From Octopus vulgaris (Eukaryota), in the NCBI GenBank assembly GCA_951406725.2, contig OX597822.1, positions 110,112,001 to 110,176,000 of the forward strand: a stretch of 64,000 nt of DNA, in the 5' to 3' direction. A program made the translations under genes and the position numbers. Every line of letters starts with the position of its first letter. Position 1 is the stretch's first letter. The notes beneath the pieces were generated by a model that was given only the letters and a program-made list of their open reading frames with translations, was not told the origin of the DNA and ran no database searches. This document shows positions 669 through 26,795 of the stretch, in pieces.

Positions 669-1989
669 CTATTTTTTAGACCACCACTCACAGTCATAGT
701 TTTCTATATACCTGTGCACCTTCCACAGATTCTTCAGGTCCGTCAGCATAAAGTCGTTCTCGGGCAGACCCCTTACACCTGCTATATGCACCTTGACTAT
801 TCCGTCCCACGAATTTACTTCGTTATCCAATTCCTCAATCTGTCCATTGTACATCAATACGAATTTTTCATTACAGGGCGGGGTTGGTAATTTTGAGGCT
901 CCTGTGTGTTTGCCATAGTTATTTTTGTCTGACTGAGCATGGGGAGGGGTTGGTGTTAGTAGAGAGTGGCTTGGGTAGTGTGGATGTAGGTGAGGGTCGA
1001 GTGGGTGTGGGTTGGGGGAAAATTTTTACCTTGTGTGTTTTTCCTCCTCTTCCTATTCTTTTACTCCTCGATTTCCCAACTGGTATTTGATTCTTCCTCC
1101 TTCTCCTCACTGGCACCTGTTTTCTTCTGTACTTCCATCTCACTTATATCTACCTCCACAGGCAGTGTAACACCAACCACATTTTCCTCCTGTCTCTCTT
1201 TGTTTTTTCTAGTGGTACAGGACACTCCGCTCGAATGTGGCCTTTCATGCCACATTTGTAACATCGCGGAAGCCTCCCTTCCATTCTAACTTTTGAAGTC
1301 GACTCTCCCACTGTGATACTTTCACCCATTTTTTCCGAGTCCTCCTCCGCGACCTGTGCCACCATTTCAAAGGTTTGTCCCTTTCAATGCTTGTGGGGTA
1401 TTCTGGTGGCCTGCAGGACCACCAGCTTCTCTTCCGTGCCCAGCAGTATGGCAACCACCAGCCAGGCTACATCCACTTCTGGTGGTATATCTTCCACTCG
1501 CACCCTGGAAGTACGTCTCCCAAGGTACATGGGTAGAAGCACCACCTCGACTGTCTTCAGTGGTATGGTCGAGTATAGTCTGGCAGTTGCTATCTCCCTA
1601 AACTGCACCTCCACCGTTCCATATTATATACTACCTCCTGCCAGACTAACCTCAGTGCCTTTTCTACCTGTGCTTCCGACACCTCGTCAATTTTCCTAGC
1701 TGCTTTGGCATAAGTTCTGTGTACAATTATTCTTTCTTCCTTGTCTTTTAATACTTTTTTAGGGGAGCACCTTCACATCGTTCTCCTCCCTTTCAAGCAT
1801 TTCCTTGAACTCACTCAACCCTTCCAGATTGATTTCTTCAATTTTTTCTCTAGCCGTCGCTGTATAATCTATCTTCTCCATTTTCTTGTCCATCTTGTTC
1901 AAGTATTCAACTAAATCATCCTCAGACGAATCACATTCTAGGGAAGAATATCTCAACTCTTCCCAGCTTCTCGCGCGACGCCACTCCAT
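669..1989 (-). pseudogene. Gag/ORF1-like CCHC zinc-knuckle protein, frameshifted (L1/Tx1-type ORF1-like), no ORF2
   Basis: Successive minus-strand ORF pieces: MEWRRARSWEEL..., RVRVEDIPPEVDVAWLVVAIL, GRLPRCYKCGMKGHIRAECP (CX2CX4HX4C), then an acidic/charged tail. Confidence 0.7.
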
Positions 1990-2193
1990 TATACAAGAAG
2001 AAAAACCACACTCCACCAGGACAGCCAAAAACACGTGTGTACCCAACAAATCCAACAATGCAACTGAAGAACTATAAACTATCAAAACGCTCTCTCTGAC
2101 TATTACCGACCACTACTCTTTATAAGAGTTCGGCTAGTCCATTCTTCCAATTCACCAGGGGTGTCAATGACTCTCGCCACAACAATATACCTG

Positions 2194-2864: not shown

Positions 2865-5389
2865 TAGTGATGTCTCGGTGGCACTCTCAGTCTCACACAC
2901 ATACATATATTAAAACTAGATGTTTGCATATTTTTGTATGTACGTATACATGACAACACACCCATTCACACACACTCTCTCTCTTTCATTTTTTGTCAAG
3001 CATGCTTATCTCATCTTAGATACAGTGTACAAAAAGAAATCTTCAATAATAAATACTAGCATGGGCCTGTGGGGCCTTGTTGGTACATACTATAATATTT
3101 ATACTTAGCACAGTAAGTGTACATAACGTACAACTGTAATTTTCGTTCTGATATCTATTAATATATCAACACTTTATGTTATTTTTATATCTTATAACGA
3201 ATTCTTAATATCTTTTATTCACGGAATGTATTACACTCCTGCGGGCTTTATAATACTTACATATCTAGTTAATGTCACAAACAGATATAATATATCACCT
3301 ATAATATCACACATCATGCTAATGCTACTAAAAAATAAATATATAAAATCTATTTCGATTTCTTTATAACATAATGTAAAGAAAGAAAATTATAAAAGGG
3401 GAAAATAAATATAAAATAAATATCACCTGTTTAATTCCAGAAGTCGTAAACCAAACAATATATCTTTATATATTGATGCTTTAAAATATTTATTATAAAG
3501 TTTCTTCACGCAAACTCTTGGAATTTATTGCTTGGAAATTTTATTCTTTGGTAGCATTGTTAATACTGTTTGACTGGTTTAGAATTATTTATGGCTAAAA
3601 CTTTGACCGCCTTTAAACAACAAACAAATAAGGAATTATTTTATGGATTTGAGAGAAAGACGTTTGAGTGGGATGAAAATTTACAGACAAACCGATCTAT
3701 CACAGGCCAAGATACTTAATTCCATTGGATTCGGTTCAGTGAACTGGAAATTAACAGATTAGTCTCTTAGGAAAGTCACTGGCCATAACCCGATGTCTTC
3801 GAAGACATTGTAAGAGTTGTCTCTTGTTTGCTTAAGTCGAAATAAATTACATCGATGTTCCGACATTATGAGCCTCTGTGCCTTGCCTTCCAAACGGAAT
3901 TATTCTTATATTATTTATGGTGTGTCATACATTAAGTGCCACTCTTAGTTTATATTCTTTCTGAATGTATTTGAATATAAGTAAAAAGAAATTTTATAAT
4001 CTCGTACAATAGACTAAAGTGAGTGTACCATTTCCCTGTTGCCTAAACCCATTACTTCTGTTCCAGCCTTGACAATCGCTACTCTCAGATATCTTCAAAT
4101 ATTTACTATTGACGTTATAATATTCCCTATTATATTAACCATTCTTCCTAGATTAACAACGATTTTTTTGGTCGCTCTTTGATTTAATTCATCTGGTTTC
4201 TTTATATTTTACGCAAGCGTTTATTTTTCACGTTTCTAATGATAAGTCTGGGAGGAACGCTTGCATTTTTGAAGTGGAATTTCAGTTAAAAGGGGAAAAT
4301 TACTGCGTTATGAATACCAGTGTGAAGTTTTCAGCGAACAGACTCTTTGAAATATTTTAGATGCTTTATTGATTGGAAAGGCTTTCAACCCGTTCCGTTC
4401 TGATCAAAAATTCAAAATAACAATAAATATAGTGAAAAAACCCCACAATATTCCAATATAATTCCAAATTCTGAAACGCTTATGCTAACCAGTTAGTACT
4501 TCAGAAATATAGCTGTCAATTTATATTTTATGAACGCTTCTAATATCGCTGGGGGTAGCCATCACCAATTGTCAAAACACGTAAGTGATAAAGGAAAAGC
4601 AAGGAAACATTAATTTAAACAGACAAGTTAATAGCTGGTCACTAATGCGAAATTTATTGACTAGCATCAATAATCAATAGCTAATAAAATATAATCAATC
4701 AGTTGTTTTAATTAGTTTTATTCACGGTTAGCAAATGAATTAATATTGACCGACAGCCAAACAGTTATTTTTACTTTCAAATATATTGAAAAAAGAAACA
4801 AAACACTACGCTTGTGTGTATGTGTGTGTGAAGGTCTTTGTGTGCATATGGATGTTTACCGAAATTGGAGCTATTTGTCAATGTCAATAATGACAAACAA
4901 AATAATCAACAACCAAAACAACGCTTTATAACAGATTAGAAGTTGTACAGAACAAGTTCATCGCATAATTCTTTAAGCCTGCGTCAGGTGAAAGCATAAA
5001 TCTTGACAGTTAAAACCGCGGGATCTTTTCTTTTTGAAAGCCAGATTTTCCTAGTTAACTAAACAATTTGAAACTTCGCATACTGGTAGAATGTGTCAAA
5101 AGAAAACATAATTGTAAACCAAAATGAAAACGGAATTGTAATTTCTAAGTTTAACGTTGTTTAAAAATTCGAATTTTAACCAATGATATTCTTTCTTTCG
5201 ACCTCATATTATTTACTGCCTCTCAAAATATTGTTACTGTGACGTAAACAGCTATTTTGTGACGTAGTTAACGTAAACATGTAAATAGCTAACTAAAATG
5301 TAAACATCTCCGCTTATCATAAACTTCGTGGAGTATATATAAAATTTGTGTAGATCCTAAATAGCTACACACACATGTATACAAACATA

Positions 5390-5436
<47 letters not shown>

Positions 5437-5508
5437 ATACACACATATTCTAATGCATATGCATATATGTGTATATATTTATAATGTGTGTGTATTATAG
5501 ATGCATAC

Positions 5509-5546
<38 letters not shown>

Positions 5547-5674
5547 GATGTTTACATACAATATATATATGTTATATACATCTACATGTATATGTATGTA
5601 TGAATATATAAGAACCACAGAATTTGAATCAAACTGTTTTGATCCATACATACACACACACACACACACCAACA

Positions 5675-5857
5675 CTACCATCCATGAGACATCCTAACAT
5701 AATCAATGCTACTACTACTACTATCATCATCATTATCATCACCATCCACTGCCGCCACCACCACCACCTCTACAAAAACACCAACACTATAATTGCTGCC
5801 ATCATACACATCCACTGTCACCACTACCACCACTGCCATGATAACCACATCTACCAC
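5675..5857. repeat. Low-complexity (CAC/CAT/TAC-rich) segment, inverted copy at ~19015-19200
   Basis: CTACCATCCATGAGACATCCTAACATAATCAATGC... is found reverse-complemented ending at 19200. Confidence 0.85.
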
Positions 5858-5959
5858 AGCTGTTTGCTTACTGCTTACCCACTCACAAAATAGCTATCTA
5901 CGTCACATTAACACTATGCAGCTAATAATTTCAAATGAAAACAGACAATATGATTGGCT

Positions 5960-6055
5960 AAGGATAGAATAAGTACTGGGCTTACAAAAAGAATAAGTCC
6001 CGGGGTCGAGTTGCTCGAAATAAAGGCGATGCTCCAGCATGGCCGCGGTCAAGAG
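5960..6055 (+). mobile_element. SINE 3' fragment (same family as 62661-63016)
   Basis: GATAGAATAAGTAC...CCCGGGGTCGAGTTGCTCG...GCTCCAGCATGGCCGC matches the 3' half of the family. Confidence 0.6.
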
Positions 6056-6417
6056 TAACATTAAAAGTAAAATATGTTTTATATGACACATTAGGGTTAG
6101 GGTTAGTGTCCGAAGGTTGAAAGTGTTTAGTTACAAAAAATATATTTCTCGATCTGCCGTTGAAAGGGTAAAGATCCCTTATATTATTTATTTAAACCCT
6201 TTACAAACTAGAGGAAAATACATCAATCAAATGTTGGGAAGGCCATCGGTTGAATAAAACAGCATTGTTCCTCAACAGAACAATAAGGCTCTATAGTTAG
6301 GGGGAAATTTACCCATTCAGTTTCAAAACTCAGGTGGAGCCAAAAGAGGTCTCTACACATACATACGTATACACACACACACATACATACATACATATAT
6401 CCAGACAACTTCAGCTT

Positions 6418-6449
<32 letters not shown>

Positions 6450-7295
6450 CTAGCAGAATTGCCCGGTGTTGCTCGGGGCTGAATTGCTTGAAAGTACTGT
6501 TAATGATTGCACTGAATTATGATGATTATTCAGGCAAATATTGATATAAGTTTACGGTGGGAGATAAGGACTTAACGATCAAACGTGTGCCATTGCATTG
6601 TTTTTGGGGAACCAAATTTCTGATGAGCATTATAGGGGCACCAACTTTAAGTTTGAGAAAGTGTGGTGGTAGTCCGGGGTGCTCATAGGAATTGAGTACC
6701 TCTATTTGATAGTTGATGACGTCCTCTGGGTCAGGAGTTGTATCGATAGACTGATATACATAGACTTCCCCAGGAATGAGTTTTAGCATTTCATCATTAA
6801 TATGGTGAACAGTTTTATTCCTCGGGGCCAGTATAGCCTTTTTGCCAATCCAATCCATATTCTGATAATTAGCTTGTAGATCTGGGAACACTGCATCTCT
6901 GAGATCAGGAGGCGTCTTAACAATGGTACAAATGGAATCGATGGCAATATTACCATTTTCATACCCTGGTATTTTGCCTTCGCCAAGTGCAAGGAGGGTG
7001 TGAGGAAATGCTGCTGATGTGATATTACGTCGCATATGAGCACGCATATTGGTGTGAAGTTTGAGTGTTACTTCCCTTTATTAAAAAAATATGCATTAAA
7101 ATGGAAAAAAATGATGGTAAATTATTTTTTAAATCGTAGACTCATCATAGACGCGCGCTAATACCCAGAAGGGCTCGATATGAATCACGACTATAAGATA
7201 CCCGGTTTTGGTTAAACTGCATCGCAAAATGTGGGAGTAGTTAGGAATCTAAATCGTAGGAGACAGACACACAACCTTTCTTTTATATATAAAGA
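6450..7295 (-). mobile_element. Non-autonomous Helitron carrying a PIF1-like helicase fragment
   Basis: Minus strand starts TCTTTATATATAAA and ends CCCGAGCAACACCGGG hairpin + CTAG, inserted between A and T. Confidence 0.9.
6526..7070 (-). pseudogene. Helitron RepHel PIF1 helicase fragment
   Basis: AILAPRN...INDEML...YQSIDT...LNS..PGLPPHFLKLKVGAPIMLIRNL...CNGTRLIV, typical Helitron helicase motifs. Confidence 0.9.
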
Positions 7296-7296
7296 T

Positions 7297-7580
7297 TTTC
7301 GTCCGTCCTAAAAAACTTTGTGCGGAGTGAATGGTTACCTCTATGGAAATATATACACACATATTATACATACATGTGTGTATAGATGAATATATAAATA
7401 CATTTAAATATCTATATACACTTTTGGGCGATCTTTCTGCTACTTTAGATCTTATATTCGTCCAATTCGTCCTAAATAACTTTGTATGGAGTGAATGGTT
7501 ACCTCTATGGAAATATATACACACACATTATACATACATGTGTGTGTCTATAAACACTTTTGGGCGACTGCTACTTAGAG
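7297..7580 (+). repeat. Imperfect tandem duplication (two ~120-160 bp units)
   Basis: CGTCCTAAA.AACTTTGT..GGAGTGAATGGTTACCTCTATGGAAATATATACACACA...CTTTTGGGCGA occurs twice. Confidence 0.75.
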
Positions 7581-7809
7581 ATAACTTTAGATGTTAGGTG
7601 ATCTAGCAAAAAGGATGACCAGTTTGACTTGCTCATCCCTGTCACACACTCACACACACGCACACACACACACAGACACACACGCACCCTCACACACAAA
7701 CAGACGCACACACAGACGCACACACACACACACACACTCACACGTTAGCTTACAATTTTATTTATATATTTGCGTGTCTATGTGTGTAAAGAGGAAGTGG
7801 GAGTAATAT

Positions 7810-8365
7810 GCAGAGTGAAATGTTAATATATATTCTCGAATTTTGTCTTAATTGGGGGTAAAATTGAAAGAAATTTTGTATGGCATGACCCAACGGAAGT
7901 ACTTTGAAAAATCATGGGTAAACTCTAATTGAAGAAATTGTGTGAGGAGTAAATCGTTATGTATTTATTTGTTTCTGTTTGCTGTGTTTTTTTTTTAGTA
8001 GTGGTTTAAGGTACACTTCTCTCGTTTTATAGAAATAGTTTCACTTTAATCGTTGCACACTTGCAAAGAGATAGGAGTAGAAATTAGAGTGATAGCGTGA
8101 GTGAATCAGATTGCTCCGTTTTTGTGTGTGTGTGTGTGCGTGTGCTCTAGCCCACAATAAGAAAAGCACTTGCTTTACACACCACAATGTGAGTTTTCTC
8201 AAAATTTTGCTTAATTGGGGTTGAAATTTTAAAAACTGGACCTGGCATGACCCGATGCATTCTACTCTTAAAAATGCTAGGTAAATTGTAATTGAAGAAA
8301 TCCTATATTGTAGATTTCTATAAGAGACAAAGGGAGGCAGATAAAATCTGCCTTTTATAATAAGA
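7810..8365 (-). mobile_element. Helitron-family MITE (5' part); internal segment repeated at ~9895-10170
   Basis: Minus strand starts TCTTATTATAAAA at 8365. 7810-8050 is a diverged direct copy of ~9895-10170. Confidence 0.5.
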
Positions 8366-8723
8366 CTAGCAGTATCGCCCGGCGTTGCTCGGGTTTGTTT
8401 CGATCCGCTGGAATTGTAATTTTGAAAAGTAAAAATTTTGTGAACATTTTTCTGGTCGAAATACACCGAAAAGTGGCGACACAGCAGTGAAAAAATCGTA
8501 AAAAATCGGGATTTTCATAGAAAAAAGCATCTTTTTGATGTAAATAATTTTTGGTGTTAACATGGTCCGATTTGAATTTTATGTTCTACGGAAGGAAGAG
8601 CAACCCTTCTTCTATCATACTCTCAATTTTGGTCAACTTGCGCCGCAGGGTCTCGGAGGAGATAGTGTTAGTTGAAGGTTACCAAACGTGGCGCACACAG
8701 ACAACTTTAGCTTTATATAGAGA
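8366..8723 (-). mobile_element. Non-autonomous Helitron
   Basis: TC 5' end and CCCGAGCAACGCCGGGCGATACTGCTAG 3' end, inserted at A|T. Confidence 0.85.
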
Positions 8724-10889
8724 TAACACACACACATTAATACACATACATAGACACACACACACACATGTATGTATGGATGTATATATGGGTACTTGTA
8801 TCGCAGAGTGGTCCCGGTTGCGCACACGCGGATTCGCGCGTGCGAGCCAGACGTAGGTACTTGATACTCGATCGCCCTTAAATAATTACTTTTTTTTACA
8901 GAAACGCGAACGTATATAACGCGCAAAATTATTCCGTAGAATTTATCAAATTAAATAACGCAAAATTAATATATTTTTTGAAATTGCAAATTATTTAGAA
9001 TATAAAAATCTGGCTGCTATTTCTAGGTGCCTGAGTAACAACCTCGCGGATTTACAGATAAATGAATTAATTACTATTTTACAGAATAAAATTAAATAAT
9101 TCTTGAAAATTAATTAATATTAATATTTTTTGAACAAAGTAAATAATTTTTAAAACTTAAATAATAATTTTTTTTACACAAACGCGAACGGGGAAAAGGG
9201 GGTGGCGAATTCGATTTTTTATTTTCGTTGAATGAATAGAAAAAATGTATAATATATGTTGTACATACCTAAATTTTTTTCTTTTTCATTATATTGTAGC
9301 AAAATAGTAGTGAATTATATAAATACCAGCAGTACATTTTTTTTTCTGGGGTATTTTTTTTCAACCTCGTCACATATTTGCCCCTTTCAATTTAAACAAA
9401 GTCTTAATTAAGTCATTACGGCAGCTTAGCAATGGTTTCAATACAGGCGTGACATCTGTATCTCAATTGTTCAAAACCCTTCGAATTTTTTCGCACGTGA
9501 TGATATCATAGTGAAAACTTTCAATTACGCGCGCTTAGAAGTACGCTCGCAAATTAATACTACCAAAATTTTGAAGTTCGCGCTCCGCTTGTGTGTGTGT
9601 GTGTGCGTGCTTTAGGTGTACGTACGTATGTGTTTTTGTGTGTGTGTGTCACAGAAGCCATGCATACATATATACATACATAACCTCTCTCTCTCTTTTC
9701 TCTCTCAGTCACTCACTACAAAAAGTGAATAAAAAAAGTTCAGTTATTTCTGTCATTCACTCTCTCTGTCTCTTTACACACACTAACAAAAGCACTTCAC
9801 TTTCACACCACAATTTCTGTGTCGCACAACCCATCAAACACACACACACACACACACACACACTCACGCACGCACACATGTACATCAATGCTTTCGGAGT
9901 GAAATGTTAAAATATTGAGTTTTCTCGAATTTTGTCTTAATTGGGGGTGAACTTGAAAGAAATTTGTTATGGCATGACCGAATGGAGTACTTTGAAAAAT
10001 CTTAGGTAAACTCTAATTGAAGAAATTGTGTGAAGAGTAAATCGTTATGTATTTATGTATTTCTGTTTGCTGTGTTTTTTTATTCTTTGAGTAGTGGTTT
10101 AAGGTACACTTGCAAAGAGAAAGTGGGAGAAATTATGTTGATAGCATGAGTGATCCGTTTTATAGAAATACTTTCAGTTTAGTCTTCCTCAAATCACTGT
10201 CGCTATTTACTCTCTTCCAAGAGATTCGCTCCAAAATTTACAGGGACATGTAGAAATAGGTGACGAAGCTCGTGGGCTACTTTAGAAATCCCTATCTTAA
10301 AAGGTGTGGTTGCTAGGGGCCATCTTCCTCACTCACGCTATTTCCTCCAGTACCCTCTCACTCGCCTTTATGTATATATTTGATAGGTCCACTACCGTTA
10401 TTTAAAGTATCTGTCACTCATATATGTATATATAATGTATGTGTGTGTGTGTGTTCTATATATAAATATGTATATATAATGTATATATACAAAGTGTATA
10501 TATCTGTAGTTATGTATATTAAACTTTCTCATACTTTTTCATAGTTATATATATATTTTTAAACAAATTATAAATATAATTTAATAATTTTTATTTTCAA
10601 TTTAATTTAAATTTTTCAATTTTATATTTTCTATATTATATTTTTTTTTAATGTTTTTGTTTTTGGTTTTTCACTGTTTGATTTGCCTAAAAATTCCATT
10701 TTTCACTTTTATGATTATACCCAGAGTGCTCTAATCGAATATGAACTGTCTTCCCATTGGCGGACGTTTGTCTTTTTTATTTTTGAACCGAACACATTGT
10801 CTCTTTCGTTTTAAAACAATAAAACAATACTACCTTAATACTTTGGTCCAACAAACAAAACATCACCCACTCTCATTCTTTTATGTATC

Positions 10890-11450
10890 TGAGAATGTGT
10901 GTCTGTCTGTCTGTGTGTTTCCCTAAACCTTGAGAACTACACAACCAATTTCATTCAAATTTTACACATGACTTACTTGGGGTATAAGGAATGTGTTGAG
11001 CTGGGCTCTAGGCGCCATTGGGCTCACTGTCCACGGCTACGAGACCACAGTGAGCGCTATGGCGACCAGAGCTCGCTGGAATGGGATTAAAATTTAAAGG
11101 AGCGGGTGTTTAGGAATTCTCTGTTACATCAAGCTAAAAAATTTGTGCCAGCCTTTTAATCGTCAATGTGTTGCCGTCCATGATAAAGAGTCCATGATAA
11201 AGAGTCCATGGTGAGTCTACTGTCGTGAGAAAGAATCACTTCAAAACTTGGTGTTTACGAATTTTCTTTTACATCAAGTTGAAAATTTTACGCCAGTCGT
11301 TAAACTGTCACTACGTTGCTGTCCGTCGTTAAGAAATGAAAGCCATGGTGACTCTACTATCCTCAGATTCTATCCCTTCAAACTTTGGATTCCAATATTT
11401 TATTATTTTTCTTCAGCTCGCAAGTCCGTCTGTCCCTTTTAAATGTTAGC
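10890..11450 (+). mobile_element. Probable Helitron-type MITE fragment
   Basis: GTGTGTCTGTCTGTCTG...AACTACACAACCAATTTCATTCAAATTTT motif resembles non-autonomous Helitron 5' regions. Ends unclear. Confidence 0.3.
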
Positions 11451-11679
11451 ATTGTGCTGTCTGCCTTGAAGCAGACTTTTTCATTATCATTGTCTCATAT
11501 TTCTGATTGATCTTTCTAAATATTTTATTTCTCAACTTACTCAAGATATTCTGTTGTTTATAAATGGGAGAGAGAGAGATAAAGATAGAGAGTAAGAGAA
11601 AGCGAGGAAGAGTCCGAGAGATAAGAAAACTAAGAGAGTGGGAAAGTGAGAGAGAAAGGAGAGAGAAACAAATACGAGA

Positions 11680-11738
11680 ATCATCATCATCATCATCGTT
11701 TAACGTCCGTTTTCCGTGCTAGCAAGGGTTGGACAGTG
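11680..11738 (-). mobile_element. RTE-type LINE 3' end fragment with (GAT)n tail
   Basis: (CAT)n-CGTTTAACGTCCGTTTTCCGTGCTAGCAAGGGTTGGAC on the + strand, recalled as an RTE-like 3' end. Confidence 0.5.
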
Positions 11739-11820
11739 TATACTTTGTATACATTTGTATATATATATATATATATATATATAATTTCCCAAACAGAAAA
11801 TCTAAATGTTTTGTGTTTGA

Positions 11821-12939
11821 ATGAGATTGCCGAAAAAAACATCACAAGTGGTCAACACACGATCCGTCAAACAGATTCGTAGCAAACTGAAACATATCGA
11901 AGTATCTTTCAAACTGACAAAAGGCCATTATGAAAAGCTTCTTCATATTTTCACAGTTCAAGAACAGCAACAGCTAGAAAATCAGCAGCCACAACAACAA
12001 CAAGAACAGAATGAGCCACTCCTGGTTCCCAGCACAATGGCTGACCCTAACATCGGTCAAGCACAACAACAACAACAACAACAGCCACAGCAACAAGAAC
12101 AACAACAGCCACTCCTCAACTCTAGCTTACTAGATGATTCACTAAATGCCAGTATCTTTTCACCGCTCTCACGGCAACCACCACAATTATCATCATCATC
12201 ATCACCACCGCTGCCACCATCGTCTTCTATCACCAAAAATACCAACAAAAAAACAAATAAGAAACCACTGCCCTCTTCCCCCACATCACCACCTCAATAC
12301 TACTGCAGTAACAAAAACTTAAAGAAACATAGGAAGCAGAATGCGCCCCCCACGGCACAAACAAGAAATCCCCAAATATGCCGCTATTCACTGCGCCAGA
12401 GACTCTGCACAAATAGTGACTGCATCTTCACGCATCTACCCGGCACTAGACGCACTACCGACCAAGGCCAAAGCGTGCATCCCACAATAACATCAACACC
12501 ACCAAATAGTAAATCGAAATTCAAAACACACACAACTCGGAGTCCCAAAATCTGCCGGTATTCCCAACGTGAGAGAACATGTCTGCTGAGTGACTGTCCC
12601 TTCACTCATCTTCCAGGGACCCGACGCACAAACAGAAACGGGGCTTCAAGCCAACACACAAACCTGAATAAAAATAAAAATAGAAACACACCATGCTGCA
12701 GTAATGCTGGTCCAGTCTTTTCAGGAAGACACAAAAACAACAACAACAAAAGTGGAAACTACAACCCTATCCAACAGTACAACCACACCGCCAGCCAAAA
12801 ACTGCTCCCTAAGCAGGAAAATTCTTTTTTAGCCATGTTGAACATGGCAAAAGAGATACACAAAAACATTCTAGCCATCACTCAACACCATCCTATGCTA
12901 TTACCCCAGTGCACCAATTCCCCTCATTGCTGCCACTAA
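11821..12939 (+). CDS. LINE ORF1 with Q-rich region and two CCCH zinc fingers
   Basis: 372-aa ORF with CRYSLRQRLCTNSDCIFTH and CRYSQRERTCLLSDCPFTH (C-x8-C-x4-C-x3-H twice). Confidence 0.75.
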   Translation: MRLPKKTSQVVNTRSVKQIRSKLKHIEVSFKLTKGHYEKLLHIFTVQEQQQLENQQPQQQQEQNEPLLVPSTMADPNIGQAQQQQQQQPQQQEQQQPLLNSSLLDDSLNASIFSPLSRQPPQLSSSSSPPLPPSSSITKNTNKKTNKKPLPSSPTSPPQYYCSNKNLKKHRKQNAPPTAQTRNPQICRYSLRQRLCTNSDCIFTHLPGTRRTTDQGQSVHPTITSTPPNSKSKFKTHTTRSPKICRYSQRERTCLLSDCPFTHLPGTRRTNRNGASSQHTNLNKNKNRNTPCCSNAGPVFSGRHKNNNNKSGNYNPIQQYNHTASQKLLPKQENSFLAMLNMAKEIHKNILAITQHHPMLLPQCTNSPHCCH

Positions 12940-15900
12940 CACACACAAAAAATCCAAGCGCCCTGCAACAGTCAAAACCAGCCACTACACTAACCTCCAC
13001 ATTCCTACTCAATGCACAAGGTGTCAGCCCTTCCATCAATGCACAAAAATGGAAGGTCCAATTCATTGAAGACTGGGTTGGTAACCATTCACACCACATC
13101 CCTTTCTTCATTCTCACTGAGACCCACCTTGACAACTCCCACTTGGAAGCTGAAGTGAGAGTGAAGAATTTCACAACCATCCGCGCGGATCGTATCGGCA
13201 GGAGGAAGGGTGGAACTGCCATTTTCCTGCATGATTCATTTACGGCAGATGGAAATAGTATATTCTCCAACGGCTACTGTGAATCAGTCACCGTGCACAA
13301 CAAAGCCAATGACCTGACAGTAATTGGGCTCTATAGGCCGCCCCAAACACCCATACTGTGCTTTAAAGAATGCCTCAACAGCATTAAGTGCTTTATTCAA
13401 CAGTGCCATTCTAGCAACATACTCATGATGGGAGACTTCAATCTACCCTGTGTTGACTGGACTACAAACTGTTTGAAACCAAGCACTCCCGCCTCAACCG
13501 CTGACAAAGAAGCAGCAGAGTCACTTTTCGACTTTACGAATGAGTTTTTCTTGTCCCAACTTGTCCTTGCACCAACAAGACATCAGAACATTTTGGACCT
13601 AGTGTTTAGTAACCACACTAACACTATACATAACGTTACAGTGGGAAAAACCCTTCTTTCAGACCATGACATGGTTCTCTGTAACATGAAATTCCACCAG
13701 CCGAAAGCTAATCCTATTGACCTCCCTCCAGCCCACCCATTTGACAACATGGATCTCCATAATGCCAACTGGGATGCAATCAGGAACGAGCTATCACATG
13801 TTGACTGGTCCTTTACACATACACACATCTCCACCAACCATAAAACATCTTGGCAGATCTTTGTAGACACCGTCACAGACATATGTGCAAAACACTCCCC
13901 ACCAAGACCTGTGAACAAAAAGTGCAGAATCCCCCAAAACAGAAAAACCATTATCAGAAAAAAAAATAGAACAAACAAAAAAAATTAACAAACTAAAGTA
14001 CTGCCAACAGCAACACACAAATTCGACGGCTATCGCACTGCTTGAATCCAAAAAATATAACCTCCAACAATGCATGAAGACCCTCATCAAAAACCAAAGA
14101 TCAGCTGAGGAGAAGTGGGCCATTGAAAAAATCAAACTCAACCCCAAAGTGTTCTTTTCATTTGCGAGGAAACGCAGGGTCACTGTCTCCACTGTTGGCC
14201 CTCTAATTGACGAAACTGGCACTCTCCAAGATAATGCCAAATCCATGGTCGAGATACTGCAGAAACAATACTGCTCTGTTTTCAGCAATCCTGATATGGC
14301 CGATCTGGGCTGTATCAGTGATGTCAACCCCGAACACACTATATCGGACATAACGTTTAGTGCCCCTGATGTCTTAGCGGCGATAAACGAAATAAAACAC
14401 AATTCAGCAGTAGGCCCCGATAGGTTCCCTGCTTGTGTCCTGAAGGTGTGTCGACACCAACTTGCATCTCCCCTTGCTAATCTGTGGAGAAACTCACTGG
14501 ATGCTGGCTATATTCCAAAAAACCTTCTGTCCCAGTCTGTTGTCCCAGTTTTCAAAAAGAGAAACAAGTCCCTTGCAGTGAACTACCGTCCGATCTCACT
14601 CACCTCTCATATCATCAAGGTATTTGAGAGGGTGGTGAGATCTCGAATAACCCAATTTCTGGAAAGCAACAGACGGCTGATCTCCAACCAACATGGGTTC
14701 CGTAATGGAAGGGACTGCCTAACGCAGCCCCTGCATCACTTTGAGGACATTTTGAGAGCTTTGGGAGAGGGCTCCAACACCGATGTCATCTACCTTGATT
14801 TCAGTAAGGCCTTCGACAGGGTCGATCACAAGATCCTATTGAAAAAACTATCCAACATTGGTGTCTCTGGAAAGTTACTGAAATGGATCAGGTGTTTCCT
14901 GACAGACAGATCTCAACATGTTGTAGTTGAAGGGGTAAAATCAAGCCCAGCCAAAGTCAGTAGTGGCGTTCCGCAAGGCACTGTGCTGGGCCCACTTCTT
15001 TTCATCATTTACATTAATGACATTAATGACATCATCAAGCACAGCAACATAAAAATTTTTGCAGATGATTCCAAGCTACAGAAGGTCATAAATGAGGCGA
15101 GTGACCGGACATGCCTTCAGTCAGATCTACTGGCTGTTATCCAATGGGCAGAAAAAACAATATGCTGCTGAACGAGGATAAATTTGAGTTAATCCACTTT
15201 GGAAAAGAGGATGCCCTGAAACTCCCATACTCCCTTCCTTCAGGTGAAACTCTCGCGGCGTCCAACAACATCAGAGACTTGGGAGTAATTGTGGACAACA
15301 ACATAAGCTGGGCCACACATATAAACACCAAAGTTGACATGGCCCGCAGAATGTGTTCCTGGATTCTCAGAACTTTCCAGTCGAGAGATATCCACACCAT
15401 TATCCTTCTCTTCTCCACTTTTGCCCGACCCCACCTTGAATACTGTTGTCCACTGTGGTCTCCCCACACAATACAAGGTATCATAAAAGTTGAAGCACCT
15501 CAAAGGGCAATCACAAAAAAGATAGATGGCATGACAGGCCTCGACTATTGGGGTCGACTAGAAAAGCTAAAACTTTATTCTCTCCAACGTCGTCGTGAGC
15601 GCTACATCATCTGCATGATGTGGAAAATATTCCATCAGCATTGCCCAAATGATGTTGGCATCACCTTCAGGGTACATCCAAGGCTTGGGCCCCGTGCCAT
15701 CCGCCCAAAACAAAAATCGCACTCTCATCTCATAACAACAATACGGCACAGTTATTTCACCTCAATTGGCCCCGCTCTCTTTAACATTACACCAAAACAC
15801 ATTAAAACAGAAACTGACCCTATAGGGTTCAAGAAGTCTTTGGACAGATTCCTTCAAGAAATCCCGGATAAACCCCCTACACCCGGATATGTCTCTGTAA

Positions 15901-15944
15901 ACAATAACTCTCTACTTGAGTGGGCCATAGTGCCCAAATTCTGA
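12813..15944 (+). CDS. LINE ORF2: APE endonuclease + reverse transcriptase, two single-base frameshifts in A-runs
   Basis: APE motifs LNAQG, TETHL, GGTAI, YRPP, GDFNLP, ILDL, SDH; RT motifs NYRPISLTS, QHGFR, YLDFSKAFD, GVPQGTVLGP, FADD, DLGV. Frame changes at A-runs ~13958-13984 and 15152-15157. The frame opens at 12813 with no upstream ATG. Confidence 0.9.
12825..12848 (+). promoter_or_regulatory. Candidate -1 ribosomal frameshift signal (T TTT TTA + hairpin)
   Basis: Heptamer 12825-12831 is correctly phased in ORF1 codons (TCT TTT TTA). GCCATGT-TGA-ACATGGC stem at 12832-12848. The -1 frame is ORF2. Confidence 0.5.
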
Positions 15945-16042
15945 CTTGAAAGACTTCACCAGGTGGTGCTATTAAGTTGGACATGGCCTGGGCCAATAAT
16001 GGCCGAAACCTATCAAAGTATCAAAGTATCAAAGTATATATA

Positions 16043-16086
<44 letters not shown>

Positions 16087-16435
16087 TATATACGAAATAA
16101 TACGAAATACGAAAATATGGAATACGAACTTTTTTGCGAACAGCGAAAGAAACAATAGTATCGATAATGCCCGAAATTGCGTTTGACTCCTCTTGCTGAT
16201 AACTGATGAAGAATTTGTGACCTTGTGTGTTTTCTGTTCGCATGTGCATTTAGTATGTGTTCGTTTGTTTATTTACAATACGTTTATTTTTAATTATATA
16301 TATATAGATATGTCATATTTTCCGTTTGTTGTCTTTTTATTTAATCCTGAAGATATTATTTACGTAACGCACGCACTCATTAATCTTTTACCTATATATA
16401 TGTGTGTGCGTGTGTATGTGTGCGTGTGTGTGTGA

Positions 16436-16467
<32 letters not shown>

Positions 16468-16541
16468 GTGTAGTTCAAATTTACAGAAAACAAACGACGA
16501 AGACAGGTGAAAGAACAACAAGCAGAGTTTTAAGGTTTTTT

Positions 16542-17348
16542 AGTTATAGAAATCGCCCCCAGGAGTTACTCTTTGGAACCTGTAGTTCTTTTTTTCCTTT
16601 TGGTAAATTTCTTGTGTATATTGTAAACTCTGCCATTTTGTTATATTGTGTGCTATTTTGGTTATCTGGTATCCACCTTGAGTTTTATAGTCACTACAAG
16701 GAATTTTTGTTCGTGCTTAGGCACTGGGGGGGAGCTCTGTAGTGATTCTATACAACGGTGCGAGCGCGCGCGCCGCCCTTTTCTGTTTCGCGCGTGCGGG
16801 ATTGGTGCTTTCACCAAGGTAGAGGGGAGGGGCCCTCTCGCGCATGCGCGAAGACCGGAAGAGGGAATTTGCTGACGTGGCAGTTAGCCGAGGCAAGGGA
16901 GCGTAGAAACCTTGACCACCTGGGCGTCCGGAGAGATATAGCAGCAGTAGGCGGCGACTTGAGGCACAGCGATCGAAGGCACCAGACGTGTAATTCTCTC
17001 TCTCTCCGGATTTGATATAGCAGCAGTCAGCAGAAGACTTTCAACCTGACATTTGTTGCAGACCACATCATCTTCTCCCTCCGGACGCCATTTTGACCAG
17101 TTCTGTTTTTAGCGGCTGAACATTGTAAAATCTTACAAGCGATAAAGTTTCAGCTCTGACAAATCCATACCAAGCGGAACCAGATATACCACTTATTTCT
17201 TACCGTTATAAGAGAATAAAGTATATATATTTTTTACGTTTGCGTCTTGTTGTTTCTGACTGGTAGAATCTGGATATTAAAGCAACGGTAATTTGTATGC
17301 ACCAGTTGCACTCTAAAAGTGCATGAAGCTACTCGTTCCCGTTATACA
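16542..17348 (+). mobile_element. Putative solo LTR / CpG-rich promoter-like insertion
   Basis: ~800 bp with a GC/CpG-rich core (16750-17000), TATA-like GATATA, AATAAA at ~17215 and a ...TATACA end. Termini imperfect, no TSD identified. Confidence 0.35.
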
Positions 17349-17412
17349 CCCTAGCACTTATTCTATCGGTTTCTTTTTTCCAAAACGCTAAGCTACGGGG
17401 ACGTGTATATAA

Positions 17413-17444
<32 letters not shown>

Positions 17445-17447
<3 letters not shown>

Positions 17448-17665
17448 CGTAGGAGTGACTGTGTGACAAGAAGTTTGCTGCCTGGTCACTAGGTCAAATA
17501 GGTTTGGACGATGGAAACTGAAAAAAGCCCGTCGTATATACGTGTTTGTGGGCCGGAGGGGGCTAGCTTCGTGCTTGTCCCAGACAACTTCCTTTCCATC
17601 CCCGCAACTTAGAAGTTCGACGAAATTAACCGATAGAATATGTCGAATGACTGAGACAAGTAAAT
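17445..17665 (+). mobile_element. Degenerate tRNA-derived SINE (CORE-like family)
   Basis: AGGCGTAGGAGTGACTGTGTG head, GGAAACTGAAAAAAGCCCGTCGTATA, ACCGATAGAATA; internally deleted. Confidence 0.6.
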
Positions 17666-17907
17666 GTTTTTTTAGATATATCGTAGTAATATCTAATGTA
17701 GTTGTGGTTTACGACCAGTCAAGTAGTTACCATTGGTTTCAGACTTTTTATACTCTTAGCAATATAGACGTCTCCCACGGCTAAGAACGTAAAAGGCGCG
17801 AAAGCAAAGGTGACTCCCTGACCGGCCATACCAGCCACATAGTTTCGGGTTCATTCACACTGCGTGGCACCTTACAACCTAGGGTTGGATTCAAAATTCT
17901 ACCAGGA

Positions 17908-17949
17908 CACCTGATGAAGGCTGGAGAGTAAATCAGCCGAAATTTTGTG
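17908..17949 (+). ncRNA. Degenerate minimal hammerhead motif
   Basis: CAC-CTGATGA-A-GGCTG[10]CAGCC-GAAA-TT-TT-GTG. Stem III is no longer palindromic. Confidence 0.6.
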
Positions 17950-18542
17950 GTAGCAACAAACAAGATTAGGACAAATATCCGTCCAATGTAAAAAATGTAA
18001 ATATTGTACAGAATTCCTCATCCCTAAAATATAGAACAATTTATGATTGTTTCAAAAATTCCATGTTGACTTAATCTTGCATCGTGTTTTTAAACGACTC
18101 CACAATTAATGATGTAGTCATATCCGTTGTACAGATACCCCGTTCATAGAAATGATGCCTCGCAACTCTCTACAAAAAATAATATGCTGAAGTGTTTGTC
18201 TATCGCTTAAATATAGGACATTAATCAATGTTTATAGTGGACGGCACAGCGGTCACGTTTATAAACATGATTGAAGATAAGTCAAAATGAATTTGTAGAA
18301 ATAATTGTAAACTATGAAACAAAAATAATAACGCAAACTCCACTTTTCAGTGCTTATTACTTCTGTAACCCCTCAGAGGAAACATGACTCCTCCTTCACT
18401 CCTCTCCACCCTTAATTTATGGTTTGAGAATAATTCTATAATTGTTGTAAACTGGAATGGAACTTACTCTCTTTCTGCTCACATCCATTCACCATTTAAT
18501 GCTACTTGCTTTGCATCTTTTAGAGAGATAGATTAGATATAA

Positions 18543-18937
18543 CTAGCAGTATCGCCCGGCGTTGCTCGGGTTTGTAAGGAAAATAACTATATAAGCATTT
18601 TTAGAGAGTTATAGCCAAAAAATAGCAAAAATATGCATTAAAAATGGAAAAAAATGATGGTAATTTTTTTTTAAATCGTTGACTCATCGTAGACATTTTA
18701 GAGAGTTACTTCCCTTATATAATATCGAAAAAATGCATCAAAATGGAAAAAAATGATGGTAATTTTTTTTTTTAATCGTAGACTCATCGTAGACGCGCGC
18801 TAATACCCAGAAGGGCTCGATATGAATCACGACTATAAGATACCCGGTTTTGGTTAAACTGCACCGCAAAATGTGGAAGTAGTTAGGAATCTAAATCGTA
18901 GGAGACAGACACACAACCTCTCTTTTATATATAAAGA
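18543..18937 (-). mobile_element. Non-autonomous Helitron
   Basis: TC...hairpin-CTAG termini at A|T, internal tandem duplication, 5' 200 bp shared with 6450-7295. Confidence 0.9.
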
Positions 18938-20571
18938 TAAACTCAAAGAGCAACTAGAAAGTGAAAGTAGTTTCTAACTTAGGATGTCTCATAGATAGTG
19001 GTGGCAATGGTGTTGGAGGTGGTAGAAGTGGTTATCATGGCAGTAGTGGTGTAGTGGTGACAGTGGATGTGTATGATGGTAGAAATTATAGTGTTGGTGT
19101 TTTTGTAGAGGTGGTGGTGGTGGTGGCGGCAGTGGATGATGATGATAATGATGATAGTAGTAGTAGCATTGATTATGTTAGGATGTCTCATGGATGGTAG
19201 AGTTGAAGACATTGCAGAGTGTAGTGGTGGTGAAATTGGTGATTTTGAATATGATGCTGGTATTGATCTTGGGGTTGTGGTTGCAGAAGATGTTTGTGGT
19301 GGTGGCATTCGAGGTTGTAGTATTGGTTGTAGTGGTGGTTGTGAAGATGATTCTGATATTGATAGTCTTTGCATTGAGGTGGTGTCAGAGTCAGTGTAAA
19401 TAATAAGAGCCGAGTTAACACAAGATTCTTAAATTTCGGAGATCATAAGATAGAGAGCAAGAAGTTAAAAGTTCCAATACTGGCCCAATACCTACACCCC
19501 AGATTCTTCAACTATTTTATAAGAAAGGGGTTAATGGCAGGATAGGGATTCAGCTTTAAAATAAATTGTATAACAAAAAATACATAAATAAATTACTGCT
19601 CCAACGATGTAATTTTAGTATGTGTGTATGTATGTATGTGTGTGTGTGTAAGCAATGCAAACAATGGAAAATAATTTAAACACTCATTTTCTGATGTCTA
19701 AGGATGGATATTTATGCGTATGCATCTTTTTCTTTTTATTTTCTTTGAAATATAATTCTAGGGAAAAAGCTGTGTACGATGCCAAGCGAATTTAGCTATT
19801 TACGATGAGCGGATTTTTACGTTACAAACGAATCTGTAGGTCTGTTTACATGTTTACGTTAACTACGTCACAAAATAGCTGTTTACGTCACAGTAACAAT
19901 ATTTTGAGAAGCAGTAAATAATATGAGGCCGAAAGAAAGAATATCATTGGTTAAAATTCGAATTTTTAAACAACGTTAAACTTAGAAATTACAATTCCGT
20001 TTTCATTTTGGTTTACAATTATGTTTTCTTTTGACACATTCTACCAGTATACGAAGTTTCAAATTGTTTAGTTAACTAGGAAAATCTGGCCTTCAAACTG
20101 AAAAGATCCAAACCGCGATTTGTTTTAGAATTTAGCTGCAATGTACAAAAATAGCTGCAGAAACAAACTCGAGGGAAATGAAATTCCAAGTGGTAGAGAT
20201 TGTGTTTCCTGCTTTACAAAAACTAATGCTATAATTTAAAAAAATCCCTGGAGAGACATTAACTCCACCGAGCAATCTCTTTAAAGAATTATTTTATTTT
20301 TAAAAAATCATTCCCCCTTTTAATGTTTACTTTCCTTTTATTTATTTATTTATTTATTTATTTAAGTTTGTATTTTTATTTATAAAACAAGAAAAAAATC
20401 AGCAATAAGTTCTTAATGGACATTTTGATTTCTTATAGAGAACAGATTTTTACCCGTAGATGGATTTGAATTTCAAGCTATAATCAACAATGGACAGCTC
20501 TAACTGCTTAAGAGTTTATTTTACACAGCTTTCTATTCACAATTCTGTGTGAAGGCAGTGAGCTTGTAGAA

Positions 20572-23979: not shown

Positions 23980-24117
23980 CGGAGATGTACTCGCATAGCA
24001 AGTAATTTGATCTGAGATCGTGTGCTGAAACGAAAACAATTGCAGTGTGGAAGGTGTTTATAAGCCATTTAAGAAACACACAAAAGCCGTTCGATTCACT
24101 TCAACATTTAAGTTTAA

Positions 24118-24167
24118 TTTGTCAAAATATTTTCGTCGCTAAAATCCGCGACCTGTTCACTGACAAA
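24118..24167 (-). ncRNA. Hammerhead variant with G3-C8 core
   Basis: Minus strand: TTTGTCA-GTGAACA-G-GTCGC[GGATTTTA]GCGAC-GAAA-ATAT-TT-TGACAAA. Confidence 0.7.
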
Positions 24168-24203
24168 AATGTTAGGAGGTAAAGAATATTAATAGCACGG
24201 ATT

Positions 24204-24253
24204 TTTGTCAGTGAATAGGTCGCGGATTTTAGCGACGAAAATATTTTGACAAA
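24204..24253 (+). ncRNA. Hammerhead variant, G3-U8 copy
   Basis: TTTGTCA-GTGAATA-G-GTCGC[8]GCGAC-GAAA-ATAT-TT-TGACAAA. Confidence 0.6.
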
Positions 24254-24347
24254 TTAAACTTAAATGTTGAAGTGAATCGAAATCGAAAGGCTTTTGTGTG
24301 TTTCTTAAATGGCTTATAAACACCTTCCACGCTGCAATTGTATATAT

Positions 24348-25520: not shown

Positions 25521-26090
25521 TACCCACCCAGTGTTCATTACAGTATCTTCTCTGTTTTACTGTACGTCTCCATCTAATCATTCTATTATCTATATTTATA
25601 TCTTCATAGCTAGCGATATTTAGTCCTCTCACGAATCTGTTTCGTTATAATTACTCCTGGCTTTAATTATTTATTGCTCCCTCTCTCTTTCACCCTTTCT
25701 CTTCAATTGTATACTCTGTTCTACCCGTCCCTTGTTTCACACTGATGTTTCCTTTCTGTTCCTCAATATCCAATGAACTCTAATCAATTTCTATACTTTT
25801 AATGAACACAATGATAAATAGGTATATGCTCACATCGTCCCATATTCTAATCCACGTGCGCATGCACAGAAACAGACATGGAGTGCAAGAGGGAGGAATG
25901 GAGGGAGGGAGAAAGCGAGAGGTGGAGATAAGCACAATGATTTTATACAAGACGTAATATGGTAAGTTCGAGAGATGTTTCATCAGGTAGGAGCTAAAGA
26001 GCATCTGAAAAACACGAGACGTCAAGGGAATTTGTGCGTGATCGGTTCTATTGCTAGAAACAGTAGGTAAATCTCCCGCAAGTCCCGACA

Positions 26091-26783
26091 TACCTATTTC
26101 ATACAGAGAGGACAAACAAGGACAAAGGCAAAGTCGACCTCGGCGGAATTTGAACTCAGAACGTAGCGGCAGACGAAATACCTATTTCTTTACTACCCAC
26201 AGGGGGCTAAACACAGAGGGGACAAACACGGACAGACAGACGGATTAAGTCGATTACATCAACCCCAGTGCGTAACTGGTACATATTTAATCGACCCCGA
26301 AACGATGAAAGGCAAAGTCGACCTCGGTGGAATTTGAACTCAGAACGTAGCGGCAGACGAAATGCCTATTTCCTTACTACCCACAGGGGGGTAAACACAG
26401 AGAGGACAAACAAGGACAGACGGACGGATTAAGTCGATTACATCGACCCCAGTGCGTAACTGGTACATATTTAATCGACCCCGAAACGATGAAAGGCAAA
26501 GTCGGCCTCGGCGGAATGTGAACTCAGAACGTAACGGCAGACGAAATACCTATTTCTTTACTACCCACAAGGGGCTAAACATAGAGAGGACAAACAAGGA
26601 CAGACATAGGTATTAAGTCGATTACATCGACCACAGTACGTAACTGGTACTTAATTTATCGAACCCCGAAAGGATGAAAGCAAAGTCGACCTCTGCGGAA
26701 TTTGAACTCAGAACGTGGTGGCAGACGAAATACCGTTAAGCATTTCGCCCGGCGTGCTAACGTTTTTGCCAGCTCGCCGCCTT
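26091..26783 (-). mobile_element. Head-to-tail array of tRNA-SINE (one full copy, two ~184-bp headless units, one deleted unit)
   Basis: Head AGGCGGCGAGCTGGCA, B-box GAGTTCAAATTCC, Meta-like core CTTTCATCCTTTCGGGGTCGAT. Junctions all at GACGAAAT(A/G)CCTATTTC. Confidence 0.9.
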
Positions 26784-26795
26784 AACAATGTGTGA

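What the first reader, a model, noticed from the sequence alone, without database searches (positions are those of the whole stretch)
5013..20117. 15-kb GG-ended TIR element with an 8-bp TSD enclosing a LINE, Helitrons and SINEs
Seen: ~265-bp almost identical inverted ends 15 kb apart, flanked exactly by AAACCGCG on both sides. No transposase inside. Known: 5'-GG termini with 8-9-bp TSDs characterise Merlin (IS1016-related) elements, whereas hAT and P elements start with CA/TA. Inference: the high TIR identity against the mixed-age cargo suggests the unit may have moved as a cargo-carrying composite transposon, able to shuttle a near-intact LINE.
Basis: partly seen in the sequence, partly recalled or inferred. 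Interest (0 to 1): 0.7.

Follow-up and report, generated by a model that had tools for sequence, protein, structure and literature searches.

The report
Young transposon shell around old DNA
A 15-kb stretch of likely octopus DNA has 268-base inverted ends that are 97% identical, a perfect 8-base target duplication and no transposase; its interior of likely much older repeats probably entered a small Merlin-like transposon as one Helitron-bounded block, so the claim that the whole 15 kb jumped is possible but unproven.

Summary
Observation confirmed. The TIRs at 5021-5288 and 19842-20109 match at 261 of 268 bases. The 8-bp TSD occurs only at these two places in the window. No transposase domain was found inside. 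The host is likely an octopod, a group rich in Merlin elements. The ends fit Merlin, but MULE is not excluded.

Removing that block leaves a 2,601-bp element.

The interior is old: SINE relics are 18% diverged, against 1.3% per TIR arm. Ordinary one-by-one nesting is therefore unlikely. The CR1-like LINE is young (about 2% or less), so it may have inserted afterwards.

Best reading (0.45): a small non-autonomous TIR element that received a 12.5-kb Helitron-delimited block. Main rival (0.30): capture and insertion of the whole unit by a transposase, like maize composite insertions. The host genome was not available, so other copies and the empty site are unchecked.

The parts
5013..5020 (+). 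Left target-site duplication (8 bp)
5021..5288 (+). Left TIR, 268 bp, starts GG; clustered GTAAAYA motifs at the inner end
5289..5669 (.). Left spacer, TA/CA-rich; homologous to the right spacer only in a 21/25 match just past the TIR
5670..5857 (+). Inner inverted block (CAC/CAT-rich); 176/182 identical to 19019-19205 reverse complement, with 3 small indels
5860..6177 (-). Old inverted TIR relic of the same family (136/197 = 69% to the outer TIRs), outer GG end at 6177; its flank is not the TSD; split by a SINE piece with loss of about 48 TIR positions
5963..6068 (+). 5'-truncated SINE piece inside the relic TIR
6450..7295 (-). Helitron H1 (A|TC ... hairpin CTAG|T) carrying a Pif1 helicase fragment (6529-7020); its 3' end is the left boundary of the cargo block
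7298..7579 (.). Local tandem duplication, 112/118 identical
7760..8365 (-). Helitron-like repeat (TC-start 5' end at 8365; left limit approximate), related to 9897-10184 (191/205)
8366..8723 (-). Helitron H2; last 33 nt identical to H3
11105..11388 (.). Old tandem duplication, 106/139 identical
11784..16034 (+). Young CR1-group LINE, about 4.25 kb: ORF1 11821-12939; ORF2 (endonuclease + RT) with two frame changes at A-runs; (TATCAAAG)3 tail; lies in a (TA)n tract. Clade assigned from features, no tree made
17350..17876 (.). Scrambled, deleted SINE relics, 38/210 (18%) from the leave-one-out majority of in-window copies
18040..18311 (.). Old MITE-like inverted repeat, 66/83 identical
18543..18937 (-). 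Helitron H3; 5' part young (2-3 private changes in 233); its 5' TC is the right boundary of the cargo block
18938..19841 (.). Right arm: GTG-rich region including the inner inverted block 19019-19205, an S/P/T-rich open frame with no convincing homolog, and the right spacer
19842..20109 (-). Right TIR, 268 bp
20110..20117 (+). Right target-site duplication (8 bp)

Best explanation
The locus has young 268-bp GG-ended inverted ends, an 8-bp target duplication and no transposase; it is likely a small (about 2.6-kb) non-autonomous Merlin-like transposon inserted by a transposase acting in trans, and its 12.5-kb interior of probably old host repeat DNA likely entered in one step as a block bounded by Helitron ends. 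Shown: TIRs, TSD, absence of a transposase domain, and the Helitron termini at 18937 (5') and 6450 (3'). Inferred steps: (1) a DDE transposase with an 8-bp staggered cut inserted the TIR element about 1-1.5% divergence ago. (2) A Helitron transposase started at the young 5' end of H3 at a donor locus, read through two terminators and stopped at the H1 3' end, placing the block at an A|T site in the element. Recombination between two direct Helitron copies would give the same outer borders. (3) The CR1-like LINE inserted into a (TA)n tract at about the same time or later. Whether the swollen element ever moved afterwards is open. I put about 0.4 on the large unit having moved at least once, summed over all mechanisms.
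For: TIR and TSD. No transposase. Interior older than the envelope: SINE relics 38/210 = 18% (CI 13-24%) against an upper bound of 2.65% per TIR arm; an internal tandem repeat at 24% and an internal inverted repeat at 20% divergence. O. vulgaris rates predict 0.064 young full-length insertions per 15 kb (from Table 1 of PMC13282606), against about a dozen repeat pieces inside. The block 6450-18937 has a 5' A|TC and a 3' hairpin+CTAG|T of one Helitron family on one strand. These ends lie 42-81 bp and 272 bp from the last envelope-type sequence; random placement of three Helitrons gives p 0.0005-0.003 for the observed gaps and 0.004-0.03 for lenient 300-500-bp windows (post hoc). Removing the block leaves 2,601 bp and brings the inner inverted repeat from 13.2 kb to 673 bp apart. 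Of the 4 copies of this Helitron 3' end in the window, 3 lie inside the unit. H3's 5' part is young. An intact Helitron read through at least 1.6 kb in about 11.7% of events in cells (PMC4778049, passages).
Against: The boundary test is post hoc. All copies of this Helitron family in the window lie on the minus strand, so correct polarity comes free. Read-through must bypass two intact terminators (H3, H2) and stop at H1's weaker hairpin (-2.9 against -4.5 kcal/mol) after 12 kb, well beyond the 1.6 kb tested in PMC4778049. Every Helitron sits at an A|T site, so the junction does not separate one block from separate insertions. The similarity of 2,601 bp to the mean length of recently active O. 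vulgaris Merlin copies (2,636 bp) may be chance. Internal clocks can be inflated by family-level differences between repeat copies. No second copy of the family, donor locus or empty site could be examined. The host species is not established.
Confidence: 0.45

Rival explanations
1. One reading: a TIR transposase captured about 12-13 kb of old genomic DNA during transposition (macrotransposition of two nearby ends, re-replication as in maize Composite Insertions, or fork stalling and template switching followed by transposition) and inserted the whole unit here, making the TSD.
For: The TSD flanks only the outer ends. The interior is old. Maize Composite Insertions of 14-24 kb have 8-bp TSDs (PMC4270019, passages), and a 28-kb Ac macrotransposon excised (PMC9910405, passages). 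The inner inverted block (3.3%) is about as old as the TIR pair (2.6%) and joins the relic TIR within 2 nt, as a template-switch scar would. The left arm looks like a small element whose dead right end was bypassed.
Against: No young inner TIR exists: the only inner end is a 69% relic, and the right arm has none. The two arms have different spacers, as the left and right ends of one element would. It leaves the Helitron-end boundary coincidence unexplained. No duplicate of the interior occurs in the 64-kb window.
Confidence: 0.3
2. An old TIR element accumulated nested insertions one by one over a long time, and its ends were later homogenised by gene conversion so that they look young.
For: Interior GC (36%) resembles the flanks (35% and 33%). 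Old relics of the same TIR family exist. A perfect TSD survives with probability 0.19 at 10% divergence per copy.
Against: It needs two separate conversion tracts (TIR and inner block) across 13-15 kb. TSD survival falls to 0.03-0.07 at the 15-20% age of the SINE relics. Without conversion the expected number of young insertions is 0.064.
Confidence: 0.13
3. Transposition-independent gap filling, unrelated to Helitrons: a break inside the resident element was repaired by copying about 12 kb from another locus (single-copy Pack-TIR route).
For: This is the commonest route for animal Pack-TIRs (PMC8277862, Results parts 1-2 of 4).
Against: The median captured size there is 224 bp and the largest human case 3.6 kb, though that screen stopped at 5 kb (10 kb in human). 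It does not predict Helitron ends at both borders.
Confidence: 0.08
4. Two independent insertions in opposite orientation with a chance 8-mer match, or an assembly artefact.
For: The family is frequent locally (4 ends in 64 kb). The LINE frame changes at A-runs could be read errors.
Against: A chance match has probability 5e-6 to 3e-5. Neither arm has a young second end. Misassembly would not be expected to create a TSD (inference).
Confidence: 0.04

Closest known systems
Merlin superfamily (IS1016/IS1595-related), non-autonomous members
   Same: GG termini, 8-bp TSD, TIR within 24-462 bp (PMC8101967). Abundant in octopods: 191 Merlin protein hits in O. bimaculoides; 2 families with 11 recently active insertions in O. 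vulgaris.
   Different: No DDE_Tnp_IS1595 transposase in cis. 15 kb against 1.6 kb (mean of 3 curated consensus sequences in a mollusc TE study) and 2.6 kb (O. vulgaris mean). It also has a second inner inverted block and an old relic end inside.
MULE/MuDR and Foldback-like elements (Tm1, FB4 and Ssk-FB4)
   Same: Long TIRs, composite inverted ends, cargo; TSDs of 8-10 bp in Tm1; 21 recently active Mutator families in O. vulgaris.
   Different: TSD is mostly 9 bp in Tm1 and 9-10 bp in FB4. No tandem arrays in these TIRs. No MULE domain found.
Pack-TIRs of animals (PMC8277862)
   Same: TIR ends around captured DNA, no transposase.
   Different: The cargo is about 55 times the 224-bp median and above the 5-kb screen limit. 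It is repeat DNA with no host gene domain found. The parental copy was not testable.
Maize Ac/fAc Composite Insertions and macrotransposons (PMC4270019, PMC9910405)
   Same: Transposon termini, 8-bp TSD, 14-28 kb of genomic DNA between them.
   Different: hAT ends in a plant, formed from two identifiable elements. Here there is no young inner end and no donor was seen.
Helitron 3' transduction / composite Helitrons (Helraiser, PMC4778049; PMC5148889)
   Same: 5' TC, 3' hairpin+CTAG, A|T target, several internal termini, captured flanking DNA.
   Different: 12.5 kb with two bypassed terminators, nested inside a TIR element; unit movement is inferred only.
KolobokP composite-like transposons (PMC9587614)
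   Same: Composite-like DNA transposon in molluscs.
   Different: Long direct (not inverted) terminal repeats, TTAA TSD, encodes its own transposase. Not this element.

Membership tests
Merlin | Terminal 5'-GG | tested here: met
   All 4 family ends in the window start GG; definition from PMC8101967
Merlin | 8- or 9-bp TSD | tested here: met
   8 bp, but at one insertion only
Merlin | TIR 24-462 bp | tested here: met
   268 bp
Merlin | DDE_Tnp_IS1595 transposase in the element | tested here: not met
   0 of 89 ORFs and 0 of 12 read-through frames. Expected for a non-autonomous copy, so it is filed as Merlin-like, not as a member
Merlin | Termini shared with a classified Merlin family (Repbase rule: same TSD length, positions 1-11 with at most 1 mismatch; PMC4455052) | not testable with these tools
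   No eukaryotic repeat library or host genome. Motif searches of papers and supplements showed no matching terminus (0 papers; 13 occurrences, 4 passages shown, all internal)
MULE/MuDR (incl. Foldback-like) | Long TIRs and 8-10-bp, mostly 9-bp, TSD | tested here: inconclusive
   268-bp TIR fits; 8 bp is at the short end
MULE/MuDR (incl. Foldback-like) | MULE transposase in cis or linked by shared termini | tested here: inconclusive
   None in cis; a link in trans was not testable
hAT | Short TIRs starting CA/TA (recalled, from no call) with 8-bp TSD | tested here: not met
   TSD fits, but the ends start GG and are 268 bp
Pack-TIR | Captured non-TE host sequence with an identifiable parental copy | not testable with these tools
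   No host-gene domain above a curated cut-off in the interior; no parent in the 64-kb window; genome unavailable
Composite Insertion / macrotransposon | Outer termini flanked by one TSD | tested here: met
Composite Insertion / macrotransposon | Built from two competent elements (young inner end, or a donor with a reversed-end pair) | tested here: inconclusive
   The only inner end is a 69% relic and the right arm has none; donor not testable
Composite Helitron (6450-18937) | 5' TC after A, 3' hairpin + CTAG before T | tested here: met
Composite Helitron (6450-18937) | Moved as one unit (donor copy, or empty 6449|18938 allele) | not testable with these tools
   Only a post hoc boundary statistic, p 0.0005-0.03
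CR1-group LINE (11784-16034) | AP-endonuclease + RT ORF2 and short tandem-repeat 3' tail (clade features recalled) | tested here: met
CR1-group LINE (11784-16034) | RT phylogeny places it in CR1 rather than L2/Crack/Daphne | not tested
   The hits carried no clade names; no tree was built

The most novel reading that the evidence does not exclude
A Merlin-type transposase in an octopus captured and inserted a 15-kb unit of old genomic DNA, the animal and IS1016-lineage counterpart of maize Composite Insertions and macrotransposons. The unit is multi-copy, carries a near full-length LINE and Helitrons as passengers, and gives a concrete route for the local reshuffling of cephalopod genomes.
Probability: 0.3. 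Interest if true: 0.6.

Novelty: new member of a known kind. Interest (0 to 1): 0.35.

Why it matters
Either leading reading has 12-15 kb of old chromosome copied or moved in one step within roughly the last few million years in an octopod. The size is far above the 224-bp median and the 5-kb screen limit of the animal Pack-TIR survey. If the TIR ends did it, it would be a cargo-carrying Merlin-like macrotransposon, which my literature searches did not find (open-access library only). If Helitron read-through did it, it is an unusually long natural transduction nested in a TIR element. The case also shows that young TIRs around old cargo do not by themselves prove that the unit jumped. No host-gene domain was found in the cargo, which limits the biological impact.

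Tried and rejected
Transposase search inside the element: none. Outside it, 218 ORFs of 55 aa or more gave three Pfam-positive ORFs: two from a pogo/Tc5-type relic (37.8-39.0 kb) and one zinc knuckle. None was Merlin or MULE.

Copies of the TIR elsewhere: 0 matches for a conserved TIR motif in GTDB genome contigs and no match in plasmids. Both are prokaryotic collections, so this says nothing about the host genome. Viral and metagenome contig collections stayed unchecked.

The 149-aa S/P/T-rich frame at 18982-19428(-) as a captured exon: one weak hit (E 7e-4, 32%) among 1.84 billion representatives and no Atlas hit. Not supported.

LINE ORF1: no Pfam hit, no Atlas hit, one unnamed 40% hit. Whether its 5' end is complete stays open.

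Rfam: 11 matches, all below the gathering score (10 miRNA models and 1 intronic-RNA model, on TA/CA-rich tracts). Rejected.

Solo LTR at 16.5-17.4 kb: three weak TG..CA/TSD candidates, none convincing.

Reconstructed empty site: no match to another repeat in the window.

Left arm as a complete young MITE: rejected. Its right end is 69% identical, SINE-split, and its flank is not the TSD.

over-masked (30%) and was replaced. The Helitron 3'-end scan missed the true ends; they were read directly. The printout had H2's 3' end two bases off; 8366 is.

H1 vs H3 (13/237) and the 7298 tandem (6/118) are not significantly older than the TIRs (p 0.11 and 0.23), so they are not used as evidence of old cargo.

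The original Merlin paper was not held. The O. vulgaris repeat library on Zenodo and that paper's supplement were not read; either may already classify this family.


Full report
1. Observation. The left end 5021-5288 and the reverse complement of 19842-20109 align without gaps at 261 of 268 positions, and both start GG. Three of the seven mismatches lie in the first 19 bases, at positions that also vary in older family copies. AAACCGCG abuts both ends (5013-5020, 20110-20117) and occurs nowhere else on either strand of the window. The chance of such a match is 5e-6 to 3e-5. No transposase domain was found in 89 interior ORFs or in 12 six-frame read-through translations of the non-LINE interior. 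The LINE, Helitrons and SINE pieces are present.

2. Host. The best hit of the LINE reverse transcriptase is from Argonauta hians (54%). The best named hits of the Helitron helicase fragment are from Octopus sinensis and O. bimaculoides (51-55%). The host is therefore likely an octopod; the species is not established.

3. (a) A second inverted block, 5670-5857 against 19019-19205, is 176/182 identical with three small indels, about the same age as the TIRs. The spacers between TIR and block differ on the two arms. (b) An old inverted TIR of the same family lies inside the left arm (5860-6177, 69%), split by a SINE piece. Its flank is not the TSD, and the right arm has no such end. (c) Three Helitrons with canonical ends lie on the minus strand: H1 6450-7295, H2 8366-8723 and H3 18543-18937. 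The 3' end of H1 and the 5' end of H3 enclose everything that is not envelope, except 272 bp on the left and 42-81 bp on the right. Removing 6450-18937 leaves 2,601 bp and puts the inner inverted blocks 673 bp apart.

4. Ages. TIR divergence is 2.6% pairwise, or 1.3% per arm (CI 0.5-2.7%). At the rate quoted in PMC13282606 that is about 3.6 My (1.5-7.4). The SINE relics at 17.3-17.9 kb are scrambled and differ at 38 of 210 sites (18%, CI 13-24%) from a leave-one-out majority of in-window copies; outside copies gave 4-29% per piece. An internal tandem repeat (33/139) and an internal inverted repeat (17/83) are also far more diverged than the TIRs, whereas H1 vs H3 and the 7298 tandem are not significantly so. 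These clocks can be inflated by family-level differences. O. vulgaris has 11,961 recently active insertions in 2.8 Gb, or 0.064 per 15 kb, so a dozen pieces should not have piled up after the TIR insertion unless the TIRs were homogenised. The LINE has no in-frame stop in 4,014 coding sites (95% upper bound 1.9-2.2%; P(no stop) 0.13-0.17 at 1.3%). Its two frame changes fall at or beside A-runs. Its length (4.25 kb) is close to the mean of recently active O. vulgaris CR1 copies (4.08 kb). It is near-intact but not older than the envelope, so it cannot be shown to be a passenger.

5. Mechanism. Shown: one TIR-type insertion event with an 8-bp TSD, and a young envelope. Inferred from in-window clocks: an old interior. 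Inferred: how the old DNA got inside. I favour one-step entry of a Helitron-bounded block into a 2.6-kb non-autonomous element (0.45). The borders coincide with Helitron ends (p 0.0005-0.003 for the observed gaps, 0.004-0.03 lenient, post hoc), H3's 5' part is young, and Helitron terminators are bypassed in about 11.7% of events (PMC4778049). Against it: two intact terminators must be bypassed over 12 kb, the last hairpin is the weakest, and same-strand clustering gives the polarity for free. It has a size-matched precedent in maize Composite Insertions of 14-24 kb with 8-bp TSDs (PMC4270019), and the inner block could be its template-switch scar. Serial nesting with TIR conversion (0.13), plain gap filling (0.08) and chance or artefact (0.04) follow. 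Summed over mechanisms, my estimate that the large unit moved at least once is about 0.4.

6. Comparison with known families. GG ends, an 8-bp TSD and a 268-bp TIR fit Merlin as described in PMC8101967. Merlin is well represented in octopods. Long TIRs and 8-10-bp TSDs also fit MULE/Foldback elements. With no transposase in cis and no library to link the termini, it is Merlin-like, not a proven member. It works like a Pack-TIR or macrotransposon in carrying foreign DNA between TIRs, but exceeds the size range screened in animals, and no host-gene domain was found in the cargo.

7. Papers and what I saw. PMC8101967: passages, supplement list, a supplement search and one unrelated supplement. 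PMC13282606: parts 1-2 of 3 of the text; supplement listed, not read. PMC8277862: abstract, Results parts 1-2 of 4, one Methods section, passages. Passages only: PMC10045372, PMC9587614, PMC10294476, PMC5753468, PMC4455052, PMC3169594, PMC9910405, PMC4270019, PMC5148889, PMC4778049. The original Merlin paper was not held. Searches listed no paper whose title or abstract start described a cargo-carrying Merlin or this family. Repbase, Dfam and the Zenodo library of PMC13282606 could not be seen and may already hold it.

8. Verdict. A real, recent TIR insertion with an unusually large old interior; a new member of a known kind. The decisive data are other genomic copies, the donor of the interior and the orthologous empty site, none of which was available here. 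Interest 0.35; novel case probability 0.3, interest 0.6 if true.

Noticed in passing
window 52063-52340: A third, old relic of the same TIR family (65-71% identity) with no partner in the window. It shares a 9-nt insertion with the internal relic relative to the young TIRs.
   Followed up: partly
window 52341-52349 and 19206-19214: The 9 bases flanking the 52-kb relic recur exactly at the edge of the inner inverted block. The 8-mer occurs 6 times in the window, so this is likely chance.
   Followed up: partly
window 5244-5306 and the mirror region of the right arm: Four GTAAAYA motifs per arm at the inner TIR end, against 0.07 expected per 160 nt. They may be transposase or forkhead-type binding sites (motif name recalled); absent from the relics.
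   Followed up: partly
window 17890-17990 and 51374: Hammerhead-like cores (CTGAnGA...GAAA with a stem), as in Penelope-type repeats (recalled). No Rfam hit at 17.9 kb; 51374 was not scanned against Rfam.
   Followed up: no
window 37825-39019: Degraded pogo/Tc5-type transposase (HTH_Tnp_Tc5 + DDE_1), outside the element.
   Followed up: no
window 46628-47019: A Helitron of the same family and strand as H1 and H3, outside the element.
   Followed up: partly
window 24010-24340 and 57781-58411: A palindromic MITE-like repeat of about 300 bp (88% self-inverted) with related copies near 58 kb.
   Followed up: no
window 26000-26790, 29379-29721, 32743-33009, 47818-48011: A 184-bp unit in tandem and dispersed copies, SINE-derived or satellite-like.
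   Followed up: no
window 700-2100 (-) and 52400-52700 (+): Zinc-knuckle hit at 1153-1383(-), as in a LINE ORF1 or gag relic; a similar-looking stretch next to the 52-kb relic had no Pfam hit.
   Followed up: no
window 45791-46249 (-): A 152-aa frame with no Pfam hit that by eye resembles a Penelope-type reverse-transcriptase fragment (recalled).
   Followed up: no
window 16540-17350: GC- and CpG-rich unclassified segment inside the cargo, LTR-like by eye, with no convincing TSD.
   Followed up: partly
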